Shown here piece by piece: positions 1 through 40,291 of a stretch of DNA of 40,291 nt; the stretch's first letter is position 1; every line of letters begins with the position of its first letter. The DNA is from Escherichia phage ZG49. The stretch lies in sequence record NC_047777.1; one strand, given 5' to 3'. The notes beneath the pieces are model-generated. The model was given only the letters and a program-made list of their open reading frames with translations, made no database searches and was not told the origin of the DNA. The translations under genes were made by a program, and so were the position numbers.

Positions 1-401
1 CCTAAGGCTTGCACCGATGGAAGGAGGGTGATATTAATCATAATCCCTCCAATACAGATAGTCACCGACCATAGATACAGGAGGTATGTAGCATATGGCA
101 AAGACCAAAGCTGTACTTAAAGCTCTGGCGACCAATCGAGCTACATACAGGTTTCTTGCTGCTGTTCTACTTGCTGCTGGCGTTACTGCTGGAAGTAAGT
201 GGGTCGGGTGGGTCGAGACTCTCGTATGTTCTCTGGTGTCTCAGTGTAATTAACGCAATCATGGTAACGATTCATGAGCGGAAGACCTAAGGTCAGTACG
301 TGGATAAAGACTCACTCTACTGACCTTAGCTACTGTAGTCAAGGACTTTAGGTAACACCTTAATAGAAGCTCACCTAGGGTCATCCTACTTATTGGTCTA
401 T
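1..401. repeat. Left direct terminal repeat, identical to 39891-40291
   Basis: Bases 1-401 read identically to 39891-40291; window begins and ends exactly on the repeat; T7-like genomes carry direct terminal repeats. Confidence 0.8.
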
Positions 402-689
402 CCTAGTGTCGCCTGACCTACGGTCCTTGACCTACAGTAGCTGCCACCTACGGTCACTCGATGAGTTTTGGACCAAAAGTTTGAGACCACATCTCACAGT
501 TCAAGAACCTCAAGTCTCCCCATAGGCCCTCTTTAAGTCCAGACCAAAGGCCCTACCCCAGTCTATCATAAGGCTGGACCGATGGTCAAGACGTTAGGTC
601 AACGATAGGTCTAGGCTATGGCTGGAGGTCAGGACGATAGGTAGGGACTATGGGTCTGTCTCTGAGTCTCTATCTGTATAACCATAGGT

Positions 690-780
690 CCTACAACCTA
701 GTCCTACAACCTACAGTCCTACAACCTACAGTCCTACAACCTACAGTCCTACAACCTACAGTCCTACAACCTACAGTCTA
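690..780. repeat. Tandem array of about 6 copies of a 15-bp unit (GTCCTACAACCTACA) in the left-end non-coding region
   Basis: Direct reading: a 13-bp partial copy followed by five exact 15-bp copies; no spacers. Confidence 0.8.
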
Positions 781-947
781 ACTAACCTACAGTATCAACC
801 ATAAGACACCAACACCTACGGTCATAGACCCACAGTTAATAGACACAAAGCTATAGACTTAAGGTCTTAAACATGTTAGTCAAAGACTATATCCTATTAC
901 ACCATGGGGCCGACGATAGCTTAATCAATATTATTTAAGATTACCTA

Positions 948-1309: not shown

Positions 1310-1834
1310 ATGAAACTGATAGGCAAAGGCGCGTTCACTAAGTGCTACCTGAAGGATTGCGGAAAGCGTGTACTTCTGGTCTCTTCAGACCCAATCAAGG
1401 AGTGTATGGCGTGGGGATGGTTCCCTGAGTCTTCACTGTTCCCTGAAGTCAAGATGATTGAGGTGGGCACGTATGAGATGGACTACATGCCACCAACACG
1501 AGGTCTCAAGGCGCATTTAGATGACGACCAGTGGCAACTCTATCAGGTGCTGCGAGATTGCTTCTCACGGTCTCCGGTATTCTCTCGACCTGCTGACCTG
1601 TATCACAAGTGGTACGAGATATTCCAAGCTGCACACGACAGGTCTGAGACCGAGACTGTGCGGGAAGGTCTGATGGATGTACTGATGGCGCTGGACGCTT
1701 GCGCTAACTTCGGGTCTGACATTCAGTTTGAGATAAGCCCACGAAATGTACGGGCTGTGAATGGTAAGCTGATACTAGTGGATTGTTTCTTCCTTGTGTC
1801 CAAGCTGCCAGAGGTGAGGGCGTTAAGATGGTAA
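1310..1834 (+). CDS. gp0.7-like serine/threonine protein kinase (kinase domain only, 174 aa)
   Basis: Glycine-rich loop IGKGAFTKCY resembles T7 gp0.7 LGNGHFSAAY; further similarity (VLRDCF, ILVDCFF); RBS AAGGA upstream; first gene after early promoters. Confidence 0.7.
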   Translation: MKLIGKGAFTKCYLKDCGKRVLLVSSDPIKECMAWGWFPESSLFPEVKMIEVGTYEMDYMPPTRGLKAHLDDDQWQLYQVLRDCFSRSPVFSRPADLYHKWYEIFQAAHDRSETETVREGLMDVLMALDACANFGSDIQFEISPRNVRAVNGKLILVDCFFLVSKLPEVRALRW

Positions 1835-2289
1835 CTTATGGTCTCTGCCAGCACCACGTCACCAACGCCCGGCTTATGGTCGAGACCGGGCAGTTAGACC
1901 ACGAGATGACGACCAGTGGCAACTCTATCAGGTGCTGCGAGATTGCTTCTCACGGTCTCCGGTATTCTCTCGACCTGCTGACCTGTATCACAAGTGGTAC
2001 GAGATATTCCAAGCTGCACACGACAGGTCTGAGACCGAGACTGTGCGGGAAGGTCTGATGGATGTACTGATGGCGCTGGACGCTTGCGCTAACTTCGGGT
2101 CTGACATTCAGTTTGAGATAAGCCCACGAAATGTACGGGCTGTGAATGGTAAGCTGATACTAGTGGATTGTTTCTTCCTTGTGTCCAAGCTGCCAGAGGT
2201 GAGGGCGTTAAGATGGTAACTTATGGTCTCTGCCAGCACCACGTCACCAACGCCCGGCTTATGGTCGAGACCGGGCAGTTAGACCACGA
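1520..2289. repeat. Tandem duplication A: two identical 385-bp copies (1520-1904, 1905-2289)
   Basis: Direct reading; ORFs 1310-1834 and 1932-2219 share an identical C-terminal 95 aa; 1783-2058 and 2168-2362 share their N-terminus. Confidence 0.9.
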
Positions 2290-2362
2290 TTGGGCTATGC
2301 GTCTCTTGAAAGTGGTCTACAGGAGACGCAAGCGCATACACGATAGTTTACACACTGAGTGA
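2213..2362 (+). CDS. Small hypothetical protein (49 aa) overlapping kinase 3' end; start uncertain (track ORF begins at a TTG at 2168)
   Basis: ATG at 2213 preceded by GAGGTGAG; intact only in copy 2 of duplication A; copy at 1828 is chimeric. Confidence 0.3.
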   Translation: MVTYGLCQHHVTNARLMVETGQLDHDWAMRLLKVVYRRRKRIHDSLHTE

Positions 2363-3069: not shown

Positions 3070-3076
3070 TTATGAC

Positions 3077-3094
3077 TTAACTATCACTATAGGA
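3077..3094 (+). promoter_or_regulatory. Phage RNAP promoter TTAACTATCACTATAGGA, upstream of the RNAP gene
   Basis: Matches the 18-bp consensus found at 10 other intergenic sites; predicted +1 at the first G of TATAGG. Confidence 0.65.
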
Positions 3095-7783: not shown

Positions 7784-7820
7784 TGCTAGCAAGCTATCGT
7801 CTGGGCCACAAGCCTGACCC

Positions 7821-7838
7821 TAAGCTATCACTATAGGA
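7821..7838 (+). promoter_or_regulatory. Phage RNAP promoter TAAGCTATCACTATAGGA
   Basis: One mismatch to consensus; intergenic. Confidence 0.65.
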
Positions 7839-7867
7839 CAACCATAACTCGACCTAAGGAGGCCGAC

Positions 7868-8122
7868 ATGTTTAAGAACTTAATGTTCAATCGTTATACC
7901 AGTACATTCCACCTGTCTCACAACCCATTAGCTTGCATTAAGCGCAACGAGAAGCTGGGCTACTTCGGGAAGGCCGTTAAGCTGTCACCTACAGTCTTCG
8001 CTCTGATTACTCCGGGCAAAGCTGAAGAGGCTCGCCAGAAGCGTGCGACCCACGTACCTGTGGTCTACACTAAGTGGCCTCGAGTTCGTCTGTTCGTTGA
8101 GTTCGTGAAGGAGGTGTTCTGA
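7868..8122 (+). CDS. gp1.6-like hypothetical protein (84 aa)
   Basis: RBS AAGGAGG; position between ligase and gp1.7. Confidence 0.5.
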   Translation: MFKNLMFNRYTSTFHLSHNPLACIKRNEKLGYFGKAVKLSPTVFALITPGKAEEARQKRATHVPVVYTKWPRVRLFVEFVKEVF

Positions 8123-8854
8123 TGGGATGTATAGCTTGCTTAGAGAAACCAGAGGTAACTCCTACAGATGACCAACCTTCCACTGAGTCAATCGACGCTG
8201 TCCGCAAGCCGTCCCACTATCAGGTATTTGACGGAGTGGAGTCCATTGAGATTATCGCTCGGTCCATGACTGTCAGCGAGTTCCGTGGGTTCTGCATGGG
8301 TAACGTCCTGAAGTATCGACTCCGAGCTGGTAAGAAGTCCGAGCTGGCTACTATGGAGAAGGACCTGAACAAAGCGGACTTCTATCAGGAGCTGTTCGAC
8401 CTGAGCTGGGCTACTTCGGGAAGGCCGTTAAGCTGTCACCTACAGTCTTCGCTCTGATTACTCCGGGCAAAGCTGAAGAGGCTCGCCAGAAGCGTGCGAC
8501 CCACGTACCTGTGGTCTACACTAAGTGGCCTCGAGTTCGTCTGTTCGTTGAGTTCGTGAAGGAGGTGTTCTGATGGGATGTATAGCTTGCTTAGAGAAAC
8601 CAGAGGTAACTCCTACAGATGACCAACCTTCCACTGAGTCAATCGACGCTGTCCGCAAGCCGTCCCACTATCAGGTATTTGACGGAGTGGAGTCCATTGA
8701 GATTATCGCTCGGTCCATGACTGTCAGCGAGTTCCGTGGGTTCTGCATGGGTAACGTCCTGAAGTATCGACTCCGAGCTGGTAAGAAGTCCGAGCTGGCT
8801 ACTATGGAGAAGGACCTGAACAAAGCGGACTTCTATCAGGAGCTGTTCGACCTG
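7953..8854. repeat. Tandem duplication B: two identical 451-bp copies (7953-8403, 8404-8854)
   Basis: Direct reading; ORFs 8122-8457 and 8573-8881 share their first 94 aa. Confidence 0.9.
8122..8457 (+). pseudogene. Chimeric gp1.7 copy created by duplication B (native C-terminus replaced by out-of-frame gp1.6 sequence)
   Basis: Identical to 8573-8881 until ...QELFDL, then diverges at the duplication junction. Confidence 0.6.
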
Positions 8855-9976: not shown

Positions 9977-10426
9977 ATGAGTAGAGGACATCAAGTAGGT
10001 GCTTATCGCTCTGGACTCGAAGCAAAGAACCAAGAGTGGCTTGAGAAGAATGGCGTAAAAGCTGAATACGAAGCATATAAAATAGGCTACGTAGTACCAT
10101 CCAGCGACCACTTCTACACACCAGATTTTATCCTTCCTAACGGTATCATCGTGGAGACCAAAGGTCTCTTCGATAGTGATGACCGTAAGAAGCACCTTCT
10201 GGTACGAGAACAGCACCCTGAGTTAGACATTCGGTTCGTGTTCTCAAGTTCACGCTCCAAGTTATACAAGGGGTCTCCGACCACGTATGGCGCATGGTGC
10301 GAAAAGAACGGCTTTAAGTTTGCCGACAAGTTTATCCCGGTTGAGTGGCTGAGAGAGGTGACTGTACGTCTACCTTCAGGTATTCTCATCCCCAAGAAGA
10401 AAGGAGTTAAGGATATTCGCACCTAA
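9977..10426 (+). CDS. Endonuclease I (gp3-like Holliday junction resolvase, 149 aa from ATG 9977)
   Basis: Strong similarity to T7 gp3 (GAYRSGLE, YTPDF, PNGI.VETKGL..SDDRKKHLL.REQHPELDIR.VFSSSR.KLYKGSPT); track ORF starts earlier at 9920. Confidence 0.85.
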   Translation: MSRGHQVGAYRSGLEAKNQEWLEKNGVKAEYEAYKIGYVVPSSDHFYTPDFILPNGIIVETKGLFDSDDRKKHLLVREQHPELDIRFVFSSSRSKLYKGSPTTYGAWCEKNGFKFADKFIPVEWLREVTVRLPSGILIPKKKGVKDIRT

Positions 10427-11009
10427 AGCGAGACCCTTAAGTTTATGGCTGAAAAATACTCAGTAAGTGAGACAACCATAAGTCGAATCAGGAACAACAA
10501 GAGGTGGAAATAATAATGGGAAGTAAAGTACAATTCATGCCACGCAAGTCAACTGACGCTATCTTCGTTCACTGTTCGGCTACCAAGCCAGAGATGGACA
10601 TCGGGGTAGAGACCATCCGTATGGTGTTCTCAAGTTCACGCTCCAAGTTATACAAGGGGTCTCCGACCACGTATGGCGCATGGTGCGAAAAGAACGGCTT
10701 TAAGTTTGCCGACAAGTTTATCCCGGTTGAGTGGCTGAGAGAGGTGACTGTACGTCTACCTTCAGGTATTCTCATCCCCAAGAAGAAAGGAGTTAAGGAT
10801 ATTCGCACCTAAAGCGAGACCCTTAAGTTTATGGCTGAAAAATACTCAGTAAGTGAGACAACCATAAGTCGAATCAGGAACAACAAGAGGTGGAAATAAT
10901 AATGGGAAGTAAAGTACAATTCATGCCACGCAAGTCAACTGACGCTATCTTCGTTCACTGTTCGGCTACCAAGCCAGAGATGGACATCGGGGTAGAGACC
11001 ATCCGTATG
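10238..11009. repeat. Tandem duplication C: two identical 386-bp copies (10238-10623, 10624-11009)
   Basis: Direct reading; ORF 10504-10812 has the lysozyme N-terminus fused to the endonuclease I C-terminus. Confidence 0.9.
10504..10812 (+). pseudogene. Chimeric ORF: lysozyme N-terminal 40 aa fused to endonuclease I C-terminal 62 aa
   Basis: N-terminus identical to 10890-11360 and C-terminus identical to 9920-10426; switch at the duplication junction. Confidence 0.6.
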
Positions 11010-17877: not shown

Positions 17878-17931
17878 GTCTAGCCGATAGTCATATCCTA
17901 TCAATCCAACAGTCATCCATAGGTGAAACAC

Positions 17932-17950
17932 TAAACTATCACTATAGGGA
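17932..17950 (+). promoter_or_regulatory. Phage RNAP promoter TAAACTATCACTATAGGGA (phi6.5-like)
   Basis: Exact consensus; intergenic. Confidence 0.7.
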
Positions 17951-20779: not shown

Positions 20780-20794
20780 ACTATCACTATAGGA
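20777..20794 (+). promoter_or_regulatory. Phage RNAP promoter TAAACTATCACTATAGGA (phi9-like)
   Basis: Exact consensus. Confidence 0.7.
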
Positions 20795-20875
20795 ACTTAG
20801 ACAAGATTCACAAAGCATTAGGCCGGGTGAGACTCCCGGTCGGTTCCTATCATCAACTTAAAGGAGAATGACTCA

Positions 20876-21760: not shown

Positions 21761-21763
21761 GAC

Positions 21764-21781
21764 TAAACTATCACTATAGGA
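21764..21781 (+). promoter_or_regulatory. Phage RNAP promoter TAAACTATCACTATAGGA (phi10-like)
   Basis: Exact consensus directly upstream of the capsid gene. Confidence 0.75.
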
Positions 21782-21885
21782 GACCAAGAGACAGACTCAA
21801 GGTTCCCCTATTACTTCAGTCCATACGGATTGGGCGTACAGCAAGTAATAAACTTTATCTTTCAATTGAATAGGAGAATTATCAT

Positions 21886-26127: not shown

Positions 26128-26154
26128 CTTATTGAATGGCCTATAGATTTACCT

Positions 26155-26173
26155 TAACTATCACTATAGGGAC
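26155..26173 (+). promoter_or_regulatory. Phage RNAP promoter TTAACTATCACTATAGGGA (phi13-like)
   Basis: Consensus match; intergenic. Confidence 0.7.
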
Positions 26174-32600: not shown

Positions 32601-33512
32601 ACTGGTAGTAAGCGTAAGTTCGATGACCGCTGGCTTAAGACCGCTGGTATCTCTGACGAGCAGTGGAAGGGCATTAAGTCCCTAATCCGTGAGTCAGTGA
32701 CTCGTGGTCCAGACGGGAAGTACACCATCAAGGATAAGAAGGCGTTCAGTCAGGACCCAAGGGCTATGGACCTATGGCGTATGGGTGACACCATCGCAGA
32801 TGAAACGTTACTCCGTCCTCATAAGCTGTCCAACATGGACGCCAAGGCTTATGGTCCTCTCGCTAAGACTGTCCTTCAGTTTAAGAACTTCGTCATCAAG
32901 TCCATCAATGGTCGAACCATGCGAACATTCTATAACGCCACGAAGAACAACCGAGCGATGGACGCTGCACTGTCTACTGTGATGTCTATGGGTCTGGCTG
33001 GTATCTACTACATGGCTCAGGCGCACGTCAAGGCTTACGCTATGCAGGACGGTCGAGACCGAGATTATCTCAAGCAAGCTCTGGACCCAACGATGATTGG
33101 CTATGCGGCCCTGTCCCGTAGTTCACATCTGGGTGGACCACTTGGGGTAGCTAACATTCTAGGTGGCATCGCTGGGTATGAGGACACTAAGATGCTCCGT
33201 TCGTCTATCCTCCCGCGTTCACCTACAGAGAAACCCGAACGTGCCATCCCATATGGTGCGGCTACAAGTGACCCTGTGATGAATGTCGTTGGTAACTTCT
33301 TGGAGCAGGTCCCGGCTTTCGGCTATGCTGCTAACGTTGGCGCTTCGGCATACAACTTGGCTGGCTACCTCAAGGCTGATACTCGTGTCAACGAGCGGGA
33401 CTACATGACCGGGATGTATAATACGTTCCGTGAACTGGTTCCGAACGACCCCATTACCCAGAAGTTGCTGCTTGGAACGTTTGAGGAGCAAGGTATCCAC
33501 ATCAAGGACTAA
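29625..33512 (+). CDS. Internal virion protein D (gp16-like) with a divergent N-terminal domain
   Basis: From about residue 190 onward colinear with T7 gp16 (RSTFFGF, TPTRWN, VVTGGSP.NL, RLEARETARN, LVRSPTGMQSGASGK, NSFLEARNLFDSD, RRVNGDIAIM, LLNGTTNYLLDA, RAMDLWR, YALSRSS); first about 145 aa unlike the T7 transglycosylase domain; ATG 29625. Confidence 0.9.
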   Translation: MATRGIRNNNPGNIRVGKDQWEGMTGDDGAFVTFDSPESGVRALGKNLLSYGRQGYDSIEKIINRWAPPNENDTKAYIDSVVAATGIPATQSLDLSDHDTLSSLAQAISFHETGSRYDPEVYQKGVARALNGISPKTPPVSANVFDALTEGLKAKPKVALGENLPTAAGLNIEGQAPEAPNESFGEMFYKSTGDTMQEREDRSTWFGFGAATEAEVKNSMVGVAIRAGKTEDSLDVIGDVFNPTRWNNHKWTREELDQIRNAGVLPQYYGVITGGSPQNLTELINLALENQKLDQEKAKAGTGAQLAAGVIGAGVDPLTYVPIAGQVGKGGKLVNKMFTVAAQSGALAGVSEMARTSVAGGDAHVAEAILGGALFGGGMTAIADGLGRALGRNTNEFAGPATRLEARETARNVDGQDLSRLPIQEGEQTFSHQGVKFADVPNEPGSVRLEDGSILIGENPLNPKTRQVFDEVIEPERAAAGVNLGGLTEIGLKLLRSENPEIRGVAADLVRSPTGMQSGASGKIGTTASDVFERLRAVDHRFYNDIDDAVTEALKDPYFQTAFWRDSGAFRQDIYQRVSMAIEDGSGNLKAELTPGELKVYDLLKNQFDAKREMMENPAMFGRPDAQSIFPGSRFKGTYVPHVYSNQMKELYIKELGSPEALQEAIKKSWLTSYASRPEVKKRVDEALLEADPTLTPEGLAAAVDKYANDKAYGISHTEQFERSSVMEENINGLVGLENNSFLEARNLFDSDMSIVLPNGQTFSVNNLREWDMDKIVPAYNRRVNGDIAIMAGTGKTTKEMKDLVETMMNKAGDDGKLKGEVSTLRDTLKILTGRSRRDGADDAAFATVMRTMTDLSFFAKNAYMGVQNLTEIGGMLARGNVRAMLHGVPIFRDLAFRNKKVGASEIKDLHNVLFGKELDDSIRPSKQDVIDRLRSYSDLGRGTATALGTAKYYTGELAVRSPFTKVLNGTTNYLLDAGRQGFLSDIVEHSLTGSKRKFDDRWLKTAGISDEQWKGIKSLIRESVTRGPDGKYTIKDKKAFSQDPRAMDLWRMGDTIADETLLRPHKLSNMDAKAYGPLAKTVLQFKNFVIKSINGRTMRTFYNATKNNRAMDAALSTVMSMGLAGIYYMAQAHVKAYAMQDGRDRDYLKQALDPTMIGYAALSRSSHLGGPLGVANILGGIAGYEDTKMLRSSILPRSPTEKPERAIPYGAATSDPVMNVVGNFLEQVPAFGYAANVGASAYNLAGYLKADTRVNERDYMTGMYNTFRELVPNDPITQKLLLGTFEEQGIHIKD

Positions 33513-33527
33513 ACTATCACTATAGGA
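33510..33527 (+). promoter_or_regulatory. Phage RNAP promoter TAAACTATCACTATAGGA (phi17-like)
   Basis: Exact consensus upstream of the tailspike gene. Confidence 0.75.
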
Positions 33528-33576
33528 AACGGGAGGCGCTACCATAGGTCTCCGTTTAAATAACAAAGGAGGCATA

Positions 33577-35637
33577 ATGTCCACGATTACACAATTCCCT
33601 TCAGGAAACACTCAGTACAGGATTGAGTTCGACTACCTAGCCAGAACGTTTGTTGTTGTTACGCTGGTGAATAGCTCTAACCCTACCCTGAACCGTGTAC
33701 TGGAAGTTGGTCGAGATTACCGATTCCTTAACCCAACGATGATTGAGATGTTGGTTGACCAATCAGGTTTCGACATCGTTCGTATTCACCGTCAGACTGG
33801 AACTGACTTAGTGGTAGACTTCAGGAATGGCTCAGTGTTGACAGCTAGTGACCTGACCAATTCAGAGCTTCAGGCTATCCATATTGCAGAAGAAGGTCGA
33901 GACCAAACGGTTGACTTAGCGAAGGAATATGCCGATGCTGCTGGTAGCTCTGCTGGCAACGCTAAGGATAGCGAGGACGAAGCACGCCGAATCGCTGCGA
34001 GTATCAGGGAAGCTGGTCTAATTGGCTATATTACCCGTCGCTCCTTCGAGAAAGGCTACAACGTTACAACATGGAGCGAGGTCCTGCTATGGGAAGAGGA
34101 TGGTGATTATTACCGCTGGGATGGTACGCTTCCAAAGAACGTTCCTGCTGGTTCAACTCCTGAAACTTCCGGTGGGATTGGATTAGGTGCGTGGGTTAGT
34201 GTTGGTGATGCTGCTTTAAGAAGTCAGATTTCAAACCCGGAAGGGGCAATACTCTACCCGGAATTGCAGATGGCAAGATGGCGTGATGAGGGTGATGTTC
34301 GAGGCTGGGGTGCTAAAGGGGATGGTGTAACAGATAGTACGGAGAATATAGCTGCTTCACTAAATTCTCAAAAAGCTGTCGTAGCATCAGAAGGTGTATT
34401 CTCTAGTTCTGGTATTAATAGTAATTACTGTAACTTAGACGGTAGAGGCAGTGGTGTACTAAGTCACCGTTCAAGTACAGGTAACTACTTAGTATTTAAC
34501 AATCTACGCTCAGGTCGCTTAAGTAATATTACGGTAGAAAGTAATAAGGCGACCGATACCACTCAAGGGCAGCAGGTATCTCTTGCTGGTGGCAGTGATG
34601 TTACTATAAGTGATGTTAATTTCTCAAACGTTAAGGGCGCTGGTTTCAGTTTAATCACATACCCTAATGATGCACCCTCTGATGGGCTTATGATTAAAGG
34701 CATTCGAGGTAGCTACTCCGGCTATGCTACTAATAAGGCGGCTGGATGCATACTTGCTGATTCCTCAGTTAACTCCCTCATAAATAACGTCATTGCTAAG
34801 AACTACCCTCAGTTCGGGGCTGTAGAACTGAAAGGTACAGCCAGTTATAACATAGTCAGCAATGTTATAGGGGCAGACTGCCAGCATGTAACTTACAACG
34901 GTACAGAAGGGTCAATAGCTCCCTCTAACAACCTTATCAATGGGGTAGTGGCTAATAATCCTAAATATGCAGCGGTTGTTGCAGGCAAAGGTAGTACCAA
35001 CTTAATCTCCGATGTGCTTGTAGATTTCTCAACCTCTGATGCTAGGCAGGCTCATGGTGTTACAGTAGAAGGTTCTGATAACGTCATAAATAATGTGCTT
35101 ATGTCAGGGTGTGATGGTACTAACTCTTTAGGGCAAGCTCAGACTGCTACAATTGCGCGCTTTATAGATACGGCTAATAACAACTATGCGTCTGTATTTC
35201 CTAGCTACAGTGCTACAGGTGTTATTACTTTCGAATCAGGTTCTACCCGTAACTTCGTAGAGGTAAAGCATCCGGGAAGGAGAAACGACCTTCTCAGTGC
35301 TACTGGTACTATTGAAGGTAAAGTTACTATTGACGGCACTAGTAATAGCAACGTAGTGCACGCTCCTGCATTAGGACAGTACATAGGCAGTATGTCCGGT
35401 AGGTTCGAATGGCGGATTAAGTCCATGTCACTTCCGTCAGGCGTTCTTACCTCGGCTGATAAGTACAGAATGCTTGGGGATGGTGCTGTGTCATTAGCTG
35501 TAGGTGGGGGTACTTCTTCTCAAGTTCGCCTATTTACTTCTGATGGTACTTATCGGACAGTATCACTCACCAACGGTAACGTGCGTCTTCCTACCAGTAG
35601 CACAGGTTATTTGCAGTTAGGTTCTAGCTCCCTCTAA
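33577..35637 (+). CDS. Tailspike (gp17-like), N-terminal 686-aa fragment truncated by tandem duplication D
   Basis: N-terminal 150 aa resemble the T7 gp17 adaptor domain (EFDYLARTFVVVTL, DYRF, VDFRNGSVL.ASDL, IAEEGRD); then a beta-helix-like region (WGAKGDGVTD); reading frame breaks at the duplication junction at 35625. Confidence 0.8.
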   Translation: MSTITQFPSGNTQYRIEFDYLARTFVVVTLVNSSNPTLNRVLEVGRDYRFLNPTMIEMLVDQSGFDIVRIHRQTGTDLVVDFRNGSVLTASDLTNSELQAIHIAEEGRDQTVDLAKEYADAAGSSAGNAKDSEDEARRIAASIREAGLIGYITRRSFEKGYNVTTWSEVLLWEEDGDYYRWDGTLPKNVPAGSTPETSGGIGLGAWVSVGDAALRSQISNPEGAILYPELQMARWRDEGDVRGWGAKGDGVTDSTENIAASLNSQKAVVASEGVFSSSGINSNYCNLDGRGSGVLSHRSSTGNYLVFNNLRSGRLSNITVESNKATDTTQGQQVSLAGGSDVTISDVNFSNVKGAGFSLITYPNDAPSDGLMIKGIRGSYSGYATNKAAGCILADSSVNSLINNVIAKNYPQFGAVELKGTASYNIVSNVIGADCQHVTYNGTEGSIAPSNNLINGVVANNPKYAAVVAGKGSTNLISDVLVDFSTSDARQAHGVTVEGSDNVINNVLMSGCDGTNSLGQAQTATIARFIDTANNNYASVFPSYSATGVITFESGSTRNFVEVKHPGRRNDLLSATGTIEGKVTIDGTSNSNVVHAPALGQYIGSMSGRFEWRIKSMSLPSGVLTSADKYRMLGDGAVSLAVGGGTSSQVRLFTSDGTYRTVSLTNGNVRLPTSSTGYLQLGSSSL

Positions 35638-36333
35638 CAACCTTATCAATGGGGTAGTGGCTAATAATCCTAAATATGCAGCGGTTGTTGCAGGCAAAGG
35701 TAGTACCAACTTAATCTCCGATGTGCTTGTAGATTTCTCAACCTCTGATGCTAGGCAGGCTCATGGTGTTACAGTAGAAGGTTCTGATAACGTCATAAAT
35801 AATGTGCTTATGTCAGGGTGTGATGGTACTAACTCTTTAGGGCAAGCTCAGACTGCTACAATTGCGCGCTTTATAGATACGGCTAATAACAACTATGCGT
35901 CTGTATTTCCTAGCTACAGTGCTACAGGTGTTATTACTTTCGAATCAGGTTCTACCCGTAACTTCGTAGAGGTAAAGCATCCGGGAAGGAGAAACGACCT
36001 TCTCAGTGCTACTGGTACTATTGAAGGTAAAGTTACTATTGACGGCACTAGTAATAGCAACGTAGTGCACGCTCCTGCATTAGGACAGTACATAGGCAGT
36101 ATGTCCGGTAGGTTCGAATGGCGGATTAAGTCCATGTCACTTCCGTCAGGCGTTCTTACCTCGGCTGATAAGTACAGAATGCTTGGGGATGGTGCTGTGT
36201 CATTAGCTGTAGGTGGGGGTACTTCTTCTCAAGTTCGCCTATTTACTTCTGATGGTACTTATCGGACAGTATCACTCACCAACGGTAACGTGCGTCTTCC
36301 TACCAGTAGCACAGGTTATTTGCAGTTAGGTTC
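34916..36333. repeat. Tandem duplication D: two identical 709-bp copies (34916-35624, 35625-36333) inside the tailspike gene
   Basis: Direct reading; ORFs 33577-35637 and 35657-36817 share about 230 identical residues. Confidence 0.9.
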
Positions 36334-36817
36334 CAATGCAATGACCCCAGATAGTACTAATACATACGCATTAGGTTCCGCAAGTCGAGCATGGTCTGGC
36401 GGTTTTACTCAATCAGCATTCACTGTTGTCTCAGATGCTAGGGATAAAACAGAGCCTCTTAATATCTCAGATGCTTTACTGGATGCTTGGTCTGAAGTTG
36501 ACTTTGTGCAGTTTCAGTACTTGGACCGAATTGAGGAGAAGGGTGCAGACTCAGCTAGATGGCACTTCGGCATCATCGCTCAGCGAGCTACGGAGGCCTT
36601 CGAACGTCACGGTATAGATGCACATCGCTATGGCTTCCTGTGCTTCGACAGTTGGGATGATGTGTACGAGGAAGATGCCAATGGCTCTCGTAAACTGATT
36701 ACACCAGCAGGTTCCCGCTATGGTATTCGTTACGAGGAAGTACTGATATTAGAGGCTGCGTTGATGCGGCGTACTATTAAGCGTATGCAGGAAGCATTAG
36801 CTGTTATGTCTAAGTGA
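35657..36817 (+). CDS. Tailspike C-terminal fragment (386 aa) including an intramolecular-chaperone-like domain
   Basis: C-terminus GSASRAWSGGFTQSAFTVVSDARDKTEP... resembles peptidase S74-type chaperone domains of phage tailspikes; begins at an internal Met created by the duplication. Confidence 0.65.
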   Translation: MANNPKYAAVVAGKGSTNLISDVLVDFSTSDARQAHGVTVEGSDNVINNVLMSGCDGTNSLGQAQTATIARFIDTANNNYASVFPSYSATGVITFESGSTRNFVEVKHPGRRNDLLSATGTIEGKVTIDGTSNSNVVHAPALGQYIGSMSGRFEWRIKSMSLPSGVLTSADKYRMLGDGAVSLAVGGGTSSQVRLFTSDGTYRTVSLTNGNVRLPTSSTGYLQLGSNAMTPDSTNTYALGSASRAWSGGFTQSAFTVVSDARDKTEPLNISDALLDAWSEVDFVQFQYLDRIEEKGADSARWHFGIIAQRATEAFERHGIDAHRYGFLCFDSWDDVYEEDANGSRKLITPAGSRYGIRYEEVLILEAALMRRTIKRMQEALAVMSK

Positions 36818-39687: not shown

Positions 39688-39783
39688 CTGAATGAATAAC
39701 TATAGGCGAAAACTGAATTAATAAGCAGTTAGTAACCTATAGTTACTACCAGTCTAACCTACTGTTTTACAAGGAGTTTGGAC

Positions 39784-39802
39784 TTAACTATCACTATAGG
39801 GA
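39784..39802 (+). promoter_or_regulatory. Phage RNAP promoter TTAACTATCACTATAGGGA (phiOR-like)
   Basis: Consensus match about 90 bp before the right terminal repeat. Confidence 0.7.
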
Positions 39803-39890: not shown

Positions 39891-40291
39891 CCTAAGGCTT
39901 GCACCGATGGAAGGAGGGTGATATTAATCATAATCCCTCCAATACAGATAGTCACCGACCATAGATACAGGAGGTATGTAGCATATGGCAAAGACCAAAG
40001 CTGTACTTAAAGCTCTGGCGACCAATCGAGCTACATACAGGTTTCTTGCTGCTGTTCTACTTGCTGCTGGCGTTACTGCTGGAAGTAAGTGGGTCGGGTG
40101 GGTCGAGACTCTCGTATGTTCTCTGGTGTCTCAGTGTAATTAACGCAATCATGGTAACGATTCATGAGCGGAAGACCTAAGGTCAGTACGTGGATAAAGA
40201 CTCACTCTACTGACCTTAGCTACTGTAGTCAAGGACTTTAGGTAACACCTTAATAGAAGCTCACCTAGGGTCATCCTACTTATTGGTCTAT
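39891..40291. repeat. Right direct terminal repeat, identical to 1-401
   Basis: Direct comparison of both ends. Confidence 0.8.

What the first reader, a model, noticed from the sequence alone, without database searches (positions are those of the whole stretch)
1520..2289. 385-bp duplication at the 3' end of the kinase gene
The unit includes the last third of the kinase gene, its stop, and the start of an overlapping downstream ORF. The kinase itself is intact in copy 1 and a headless kinase fragment lies in copy 2. The kinase (174 aa) also has only the catalytic domain, about half the length of T7 gp0.7, so it lacks the T7 C-terminal region.
Basis: partly seen in the sequence, partly recalled or inferred. 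Interest (0 to 1): 0.45.

Follow-up and report, generated by a model that had tools for sequence, protein, structure and literature searches.

The report
Probable assembly-stitching duplication in phage genome
The 385-base repeat is really in the sequence, but it is one of four perfect back-to-back duplications (plus a 401-base end overlap) in this T7-like phage genome, one of which breaks the only tailspike gene, so it is most likely a sequence-assembly artefact rather than biology.

Summary
Window 1519-1903 and 1904-2288 are 100% identical, head to tail, with 1 nt of junction microhomology. Copy 1 completes an intact 174-aa gene. Copy 2 holds a headless fragment of it (codons 71-174, 60% of the gene, not a third) and the only intact copy of the overlapping 49-aa gene.

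The duplication is not alone. The window, a circularly permuted Kayfunavirus genome, carries three more exact tandem duplications of 451, 386 and 709 nt, and an exact 401-nt overlap of its two ends. No junction occurs in any relative, and 0 of 8 complete relatives have any such duplication. Removing the second copies restores collinearity.

The 709-nt duplication lies inside the only tailspike gene and truncates it from 843 to 686 aa. Every other large gene is intact. The best explanation (about 0.7) is overlapping pieces joined without trimming. A real, very recent duplication remains possible (about 0.2). Only reads or PCR can settle it.

The "kinase" is a high-confidence protein-kinase-like fold. 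It belongs to a separate family of 155-180-aa proteins (phrog_11084), not to gp0.7, so it is not a truncated gp0.7. Interest is low.

The parts
1519..1903 (+). Copy 1 of the 385-nt tandem unit. It holds codons 71-174 and the stop of the 174-aa gene, and the first 25 codons of the overlapping small ORF.
   Evidence: Exact period-385 match. Collinear with single-copy YZ1 and SH4.
1904..2288 (+). Copy 2 of the 385-nt unit, 100% identical to copy 1. The junction is 1903|1904, with 1 nt (A) of microhomology.
   Evidence: The junction is absent from 111 phage records, IMG/VR, metagenome contigs and genome contigs.
1310..1834 (+). Intact 174-aa early gene with a protein-kinase-like fold (phrog_11084). 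Conserved motifs: GKGAFT (glycine loop), K30-E31, FEISPRN (catalytic-loop equivalent, with Glu where kinases have Asp) and LVDCF (DFG equivalent).
   Evidence: The register with the CK2 catalytic loop is shown.
1905..2219 (+). Headless fragment of the 174-aa gene (codons 71-174 plus stop) in copy 2. It has no start codon of its own with a ribosome-binding site; the frame is open from 1827.
   Evidence: Translation.
1828..2058 (+). Chimeric 76-aa ORF. The first 25 aa are those of the small gene; it then reads out of frame across the junction into copy 2.
   Evidence: Residues 1-27 match positions 1-27 of phrog_5058.
2213..2362 (+). The only intact copy of the 49-aa downstream gene (phrog_5058). 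Its ATG overlaps the stop of the upstream reading frame (ATGGTAA).
   Evidence: It corresponds to YZ1 CDS 1296-1445.
7953..8854 (+). Second exact tandem duplication, 2 x 451 nt (7953-8403 | 8404-8854), with no junction microhomology. It spans the boundary between an 84-aa gene and the gp1.7-like nucleotide-kinase gene.
10238..11009 (+). Third exact tandem duplication, 2 x 386 nt (10238-10623 | 10624-11009), with no microhomology. It spans the end of endonuclease I and the start of the amidase/lysozyme gene.
34916..36333 (+). Fourth exact tandem duplication, 2 x 709 nt (34916-35624 | 35625-36333), with no microhomology. It lies wholly inside the tailspike gene and shifts the reading frame.
33577..36817 (+). 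Tailspike gene (gp17-type adaptor plus K5-lyase domain), split by the 709-nt duplication. As written it stops at 35637 (686 aa). With copy 2 removed it is 843 aa and aligns to the last residue of the UE-S5b K5 lyase and of the vB_Ec-G9 tailspike.
   Evidence: IME177 has a 2532-nt (843-codon) CDS at the matching place.
1..401 (.). Left arm of the exact 401-nt overlap between the two ends of the window. It is not the phage terminal repeat.
39891..40291 (.). Right arm of the exact 401-nt end overlap.
492..671 (+). Equivalent of the physical direct terminal repeat of Kayfunavirus genomes. The true left end (TCTCACAGTT...) is at about 492, so the window is a circularly permuted assembly.
   Evidence: blastn of the annotated Vec13 and SH4 terminal repeats against the window (annotations).

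Best explanation
The 385-nt duplication is most likely not in the phage DNA. It looks like one of five untrimmed overlaps left when the sequence was put together from overlapping pieces (contigs, chunks or amplicons).

If piece A ends with segment X and piece B begins with X, plain concatenation gives ...XX.... That is a perfect tandem duplication whose junction falls at arbitrary piece ends. The four internal joints would be 1903|1904, 8403|8404, 10623|10624 and 35624|35625, and the fifth would be the circular closure seen as the 401-nt end overlap.

Shown here: the five exact redundancies, their uniqueness to this record, the restoration of normal gene structure when they are removed, and the truncation of the tailspike gene by one of them. 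Inferred: that they share one technical cause, and what kind of cause it is.
For: 1. There are four exact tandem duplications (385, 451, 386 and 709 nt; 1,931 duplicated bases without a mismatch), plus an exact 401-nt overlap of the window ends. Four of the five lengths cluster at 385-451 nt.
2. Junction microhomology is 1, 0, 0 and 0 nt.
3. No junction is contiguous in any relative. Junction-centred queries match as two pieces in every record listed, out of 111, 201, 219 and 52 matching phage records. The first junction is also absent from IMG/VR, metagenome and genome contigs.
4. As a control, 0 of 8 complete Kayfunavirus genomes carry any tandem duplication with a unit of 100-3000 nt at 98% identity or more; the window carries 4.
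5. Deleting each second copy gives segments that align collinearly with relatives. For the 709-nt case the alignment is gapless over 1309 nt.
6. The 709-nt duplication is internal to the only tailspike gene and cuts it from 843 to 686 aa. The lost 160 C-terminal residues are conserved to the last residue in related tailspikes.
7. All other large genes are full length, so base-level quality is high and the defects are purely structural.
8. The end overlap is not the biological terminal repeat, which maps to 492-671. The record is therefore an untrimmed automated assembly.
Against: No reads are available, so the junctions cannot be tested directly. De Bruijn-graph assemblers cannot invent a junction k-mer, so the artefact needs an overlap-unaware joining or stitching step whose existence I cannot show. 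Three of the four duplications, including the one in the finding, leave one intact copy of every gene and would be viable. Real tandem duplications do arise in T7: a 154-bp one fixed in an evolved line (PMC3737178). The total genome length with the duplications (39,890 nt circular, plus about 180 nt of terminal repeat) is within the range of the genus.
Confidence: 0.7

Rival explanations
1. It is a real, very recent tandem duplication in the phage, made by illegitimate recombination or template switching during concatemer replication. It would be neutral or slightly harmful. The 174-aa gene stays intact in copy 1 and the 49-aa gene in copy 2. A 76-aa chimeric ORF and a headless fragment are by-products.
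For: The sequence shows a clean head-to-tail duplication with both genes preserved. The copies are 100% identical while relatives differ by 2-8%, which fits a very young event. A 154-bp tandem duplication was fixed in an evolved T7 line (PMC3737178). Genome size stays within the range of the genus.
Against: It would have to be one of four simultaneous, mismatch-free duplications, of which one inactivates the tailspike. None is seen in relatives. There is only 0-1 nt of microhomology. From established knowledge of T7 genetics, not tested here: T7 rearrangements typically use short direct repeats, and 385-709-bp direct repeats are quickly lost by T7's active recombination unless selected.
Confidence: 0.2
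2. The duplications exist only in minority or defective genomes, or in chimeric library molecules, of a deeply sequenced lysate. The assembler walked each low-frequency loop once, so the consensus shows variants that the viable majority lacks.
For: This would explain how junction sequences can be present in reads while a lethal tailspike disruption appears in the record. It also fits the otherwise error-free sequence.
Against: Four independent minority loops would all have to be taken into one consensus path, which is unusual. It does not explain the 401-nt end overlap or the clustering of lengths near 400 nt.
Confidence: 0.08

Closest known systems
Untrimmed contig-overlap or circularisation redundancy in phage assemblies
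   Same: The sequence is repeated exactly at a joint, there is no biological junction signature, the repeat is absent from relatives, and the same record has overlapping ends. Other records in the same search show assembly-length problems: a 78,696-bp and a 56,270-bp record among phages of about 39 kb.
   Different: Here four of the redundancies are internal rather than terminal. That requires concatenation of several pieces, and I could not identify the pipeline.
Tandem duplications arising in T7 during experimental evolution (154-bp duplication including promoter phi13, PMC3737178)
   Same: A head-to-tail duplication in a T7-like genome, in or near the early/regulatory region.
   Different: That case was a single event, carried a promoter, and rose under selection over about 2000 generations. 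Here there are four at once, none with an obvious regulatory payload (one search finds no promoter-like or terminator-like site in the unit), and one is lethal on its face.
T7 gp0.7 protein kinase (T7K; phrog_2828, PF27024)
   Same: An early gene just upstream of the RNA polymerase gene. It has a kinase-like fold. A glycine loop (GxGxF) and an FxxxxxN catalytic-loop motif fall in the same order and spacing in the hhalign register. A 380-aa phage 'protein kinase' is a structural match.
   Different: There is no significant sequence similarity, and it belongs to a different PHROG. It is 174 aa against 359 aa, and it ends 16 residues after the DFG-like Asp. It therefore lacks both the rest of a normal kinase C-lobe and the basic C-terminal DNA-binding/shut-off domain (residues 243-359 of T7K, bioRxiv 10.1101/2024.12.20.629319). 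An invariant Glu stands where kinases have the catalytic Asp.
Protein-kinase-like superfamily small members (Rio2, APH(2''), choline kinase)
   Same: These are among the best solved-structure matches.

Membership tests
Real tandem segmental duplication | Two adjacent head-to-tail copies, with a single-copy state in relatives | tested here: met
   Exact 385-nt unit, two copies. YZ1, SH4 and 111 records are single copy.
Real tandem segmental duplication | The junction is present in the physical DNA (reads or PCR) | not testable with these tools
   No reads are available. The junction is absent from all public collections searched, and the source genome itself is not in them.
Real tandem segmental duplication | The genome carrying it is viable (essential genes intact) | tested here: not met
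   The 385-nt unit itself preserves both genes. However, the same sequence carries a sister duplication that truncates the only tailspike gene.
Real tandem segmental duplication | Short direct repeat or microhomology at the end points, as is typical of T7 illegitimate recombination (established knowledge) | tested here: not met
   Microhomology of 1, 0, 0 and 0 nt at the four junctions.
Assembly or stitching artefact (untrimmed overlaps) | Copies are exactly identical | tested here: met
   1,931 duplicated bases with no mismatch.
Assembly or stitching artefact (untrimmed overlaps) | Recurs at several joints of the same record, including the ends, with a similar length scale | tested here: met
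   Internal redundancies of 385, 451, 386 and 709 nt, plus a 401-nt end overlap. Eight relatives have none.
Assembly or stitching artefact (untrimmed overlaps) | Removal restores normal gene structure and collinearity | tested here: met
Assembly or stitching artefact (untrimmed overlaps) | Reads do not support the junctions | not testable with these tools
   No read data.
T7 gp0.7-type protein kinase (phrog_2828 / PF27024) | Sequence membership in the family | tested here: not met
   BLASTP finds nothing. hhalign probability is 5%. The protein is in phrog_11084, not phrog_2828. No precomputed PF27024 hit on any of the 120 listed homologues, while all listed gp0.7 homologues have it.
T7 gp0.7-type protein kinase (phrog_2828 / PF27024) | C-terminal basic DNA-binding / host shut-off domain | tested here: not met
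   The protein ends at residue 174, 16 residues after D158.
Protein-kinase-like (PKL) fold superfamily | Bilobal kinase-like fold | tested here: met
Protein-kinase-like (PKL) fold superfamily | Nucleotide- and metal-binding motifs: glycine loop, Asn of the catalytic loop, Asp of DFG | tested here: met
   G7, N146 and D158 are invariant and G5 and F9 nearly invariant across the 36 aligned sequences; E141 to N146 is 5 residues and N146 to D158 is 12, close to canonical spacing. Register with CK2 HRDVKPxN...D.
Protein-kinase-like (PKL) fold superfamily | Catalytic Asp (HRD) and beta3 Lys | tested here: inconclusive
   An invariant Glu (E141) replaces the Asp. The beta3 position is Val in the window protein and not conserved. 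An invariant K30-E31 pair sits at the start of the next helix.
Protein-kinase-like (PKL) fold superfamily | Phosphotransfer activity | not testable with these tools
   Needs biochemistry.

The most novel reading that the evidence does not exclude
All four duplications are real and coexist in the sequenced phage DNA. That would mean a T7-like phage population caught in a burst of microhomology-independent tandem duplication (for example polymerase template switching during concatemer replication), including a split tailspike gene that is tolerated or complemented.
Probability: 0.05. Interest if true: 0.5.

Novelty: not a real feature. Interest (0 to 1): 0.1.

Why it matters
If it is an artefact, as I judge, it matters only for curation. 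The record over-counts about 1.9 kb. It predicts spurious chimeric ORFs (76 aa at 1828-2058, 111 aa at 8122-8457, 102 aa at 10504-10812) and a falsely split tailspike. Any downstream gene catalogue or host-range inference from the tailspike would be wrong until the four second copies and the 401-nt end overlap are removed.

If it were real, it would be a modest example of a young, probably unstable duplication with no evident function.

The more useful by-product is the 174-aa gene. It belongs to a widespread and, as far as my searches show, uncharacterised family of very small kinase-like proteins. This family occupies the early-gene slot where sister phages carry Ocr, so it is a plausible counter-defence candidate worth testing.

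Tried and rejected
- **Independent assemblies carrying the junction.** I searched phage records, IMG/VR, metagenome contigs and genome contigs and found none.
- **The same genome elsewhere, to see it without duplications.** A specific 40-mer and exact-protein look-ups of the 174-aa, 76-aa, 49-aa and RNA polymerase products found nothing, so no second assembly exists to compare.
- **A regulatory payload that could give selection for the duplication.** No promoter-like or terminator-like site lies in the unit or at the junction; the only plus-strand sigma-70-like site is at 1089-1118, upstream of the gene. Rejected.
- **In-frame fusion.** The small ORF reads into copy 2 out of frame with the kinase-like gene, because 385 = 3 x 128 + 1. 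No functional fusion results.
- **'Truncated gp0.7'.** Rejected, because the length is the family norm.
- **'Protein kinase' labels in relatives (Vec13, IME177, phiYIO1-1) as support.** Those proteins are Ocr homologues, so the labels are misannotations and give no support.
- **Sequence searches of the family profile against solved structures.** These gave only non-significant hits.
- **A noisy long-read assembly as the cause.** Rejected, because all other large ORFs are intact.

Full report
**What the window is.** The 40,291-nt window is a complete genome of a K1F-like podovirus (Kayfunavirus, Autographiviridae). Its early region is 90-97% identical to phages YZ1, SH4, KM02 and others. A 24-kb block is 94-96% identical to IME177, pO2 and YZ1. 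The window is a circularly permuted assembly. Its first 401 nt are repeated exactly at its end (1-401 = 39891-40291). The annotated physical terminal repeats of Vec13 and SH4 map to 492-671. The end overlap is therefore an assembly leftover, not the biological terminal repeat.

**The observation.** A period-385 exact match runs over 386 nt (1519-1904 = 1904-2289).

- The 174-aa ORF (1310-1834) is complete in copy 1.
- Copy 2 carries codons 71-174 plus the stop (1905-2219). That is 60% of the gene rather than a third.
- The small downstream ORF starts at ATG 1828, overlapping the TAA stop. In copy 1 it runs out of frame into copy 2 and gives a 76-aa chimera (1828-2058).
- Only the copy-2 version (2213-2362, 49 aa, phrog_5058) is intact.
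- YZ1 and SH4 align collinearly with a single copy.
- A 251-nt query centred on the junction matches 111 phage records. In every listed record it matches as two pieces spanning about 386 nt, which is the single-copy arrangement.
- The junction is absent from IMG/VR, metagenome contigs and genome contigs.

A scan of the whole window shows three more exact tandem duplications:

| Unit | Copies | Junction microhomology |
|---|---|---|
| 451 nt | 7953-8403 / 8404-8854 | 0 nt |
| 386 nt | 10238-10623 / 10624-11009 | 0 nt |
| 709 nt | 34916-35624 / 35625-36333 | 0 nt |

Junction-centred queries for these three also split into two pieces in every relative listed, out of 201, 219 and 52 matching records. 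As a control I ran the same scan (units of 100-3000 nt, at least 98% identity) on eight complete Kayfunavirus genomes. None has a single such duplication, while the window has four. When the second copy is removed, each region aligns collinearly with relatives. For the 709-nt case the alignment to IME177 and EcoIv10b_Midid is gapless over 1309 nt.

**Consequences for genes.** The 385-, 451- and 386-nt units each span a gene boundary, so one intact copy of every gene survives. That is what random placement would give among the small early genes.

The 709-nt unit lies wholly inside the only tailspike gene, and 709 = 3 x 236 + 1. The ORF that starts at 33577 therefore stops at 35637, three codons after the junction (686 aa). 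The remainder is left as a start-less 386-codon frame. With copy 2 deleted, the ORF is 843 aa with a single terminal stop. It aligns at 92-94% identity right up to the last residue of the UE-S5b K5 lyase and the vB_Ec-G9 tailspike. It also has the length of the corresponding IME177 CDS, 2532 nt.

All other large genes are full length: RNA polymerase, ligase, SSB, primase/helicase, DNA polymerase, exonuclease, portal, scaffold, capsid, tail tube A and B, the internal virion proteins and terminase. The sequence is therefore accurate base by base but structurally odd at exactly four internal sites and at its ends.

**Interpretation.** The record has five exact redundancies of similar size: 385, 386, 401, 451 and 709 nt. 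They have essentially no junction homology, they are unique to this record, they can be removed without loss, and one is lethal as written. This is the signature of overlapping pieces joined without trimming, not of four independent biological events. I put this at about 0.7.

Several points limit that confidence. I have no reads. I cannot name the pipeline. A k-mer-graph assembler alone would not invent junctions. The particular duplication in the finding would be viable. Real tandem duplications do occur in T7; a 154-bp one carrying promoter phi13 was fixed in an evolved line (PMC3737178). A real, very recent duplication therefore keeps about 0.2, and a minority-variant or chimeric-molecule loop captured by the assembler about 0.08.

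From established knowledge of T7 genetics (not tested here), T7 illegitimate recombination usually uses short direct repeats. Also, direct repeats of several hundred base pairs are rapidly resolved by the phage's own recombination. Both points argue further against four stable, mismatch-free duplications. No promoter-like or terminator-like site lies in the unit that could give a selective reason for it.

**The 'kinase'.**
- *Sequence.* The 174-aa protein has no Pfam or NCBIfam hit and falls in phrog_11084, 'unknown function'. BLASTP against T7 gp0.7 finds nothing. Profile-profile comparison with a gp0.7 alignment gives only 5% probability. Even so, the alignment places the glycine loop (IGKGAFTKCY / LGNGHFSAAY) and the catalytic-loop motif (FEISPRN / FDMHSGN) in register.
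- *Family size.* The family is large: 737 cluster representatives at E <= 0.001. Nearly all listed members are 156-183 aa. Invariant residues are G7, K30, E141, S143, P144, R145, N146 and D158.
- *Conclusion.* The fold is protein-kinase-like, with the nucleotide- and metal-binding residues in place. An invariant Glu replaces the catalytic Asp. The chain ends 16 residues after the DFG-like Asp, so most of the usual C-lobe is missing, as is the basic C-terminal domain of T7K (residues 243-359; bioRxiv 10.1101/2024.12.20.629319). It is not a truncated gp0.7; gp0.7 is phrog_2828 / PF27024. Activity is untested.

**Comparison and verdict.** As a sequence feature the duplication is confirmed. As biology it is most likely not real. 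It resembles untrimmed overlap redundancy far more than the selected single duplications known from T7 evolution experiments. Novelty: not a real feature. Interest: about 0.1. Read mapping or a single PCR would settle it.

Noticed in passing
window 7953-8854, 10238-11009, 34916-36333: Three further exact tandem duplications (451, 386 and 709 nt units), all absent from relatives. The 709-nt one frameshifts and truncates the only tailspike gene.
   Followed up: yes
window 1-401 and 39891-40291: An exact 401-nt overlap of the two ends of the window. It does not coincide with the phage's physical terminal repeat, which maps to 492-671. The record is therefore a circularly permuted, untrimmed assembly.
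   Followed up: yes
window junctions 1904, 8404, 10624, 35625: The second-copy starts are spaced by exactly 6500, then 2220, then 25001 nt. Two near-round numbers look more like a scripted or chunked process than biology, but this is a post-hoc observation.
   Followed up: no
window 1310-1834: The 174-aa protein belongs to a large family of 155-180-aa proteins with a confident protein-kinase-like fold, an invariant Glu in place of the catalytic Asp, and almost no C-lobe after the DFG-like Asp. I found no paper describing it. It may be one of the smallest kinase-like proteins.
   Followed up: partly
window 1310-1834 compared with L003:1610-1942, L008:8174-8677, L011:808-1152: In the same early-gene slot, sister Kayfunaviruses (Vec13, IME177, phiYIO1-1, pO2) carry an Ocr-type anti-restriction gene instead of the kinase-like gene. 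This suggests interchangeable counter-defence cassettes. Several of those Ocr genes are mislabelled 'protein kinase' in GenBank.
   Followed up: partly
window 33577-36817: The tailspike has a K5-lyase domain that is 92-94% identical to tailspikes of unrelated phage groups: Gamaleyavirus UE-S5b (Schitoviridae) and Vectrevirus vB_Ec-G9. This points to horizontal exchange of the receptor-binding module and to a K5-capsulated E. coli host.
   Followed up: partly
window 700-793: An array of about five copies of a 15-nt unit (AGTCCTACAACCTAC) lies just to the right of the terminal-repeat equivalent. It recalls the short repeat arrays next to the T7 terminal repeats.
   Followed up: no
window 3071-3093, 7820-7840, 17925-17948, 20790-20810, 21763-21785, 26147-26170, 33509-33530, 39777-39800: A recurrent motif, TAAACTATCACTATAGG (with variants such as TTAACTATCACTATAGG), was picked up as a repeat family. 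These are presumably the promoters for the phage's own RNA polymerase.
   Followed up: no
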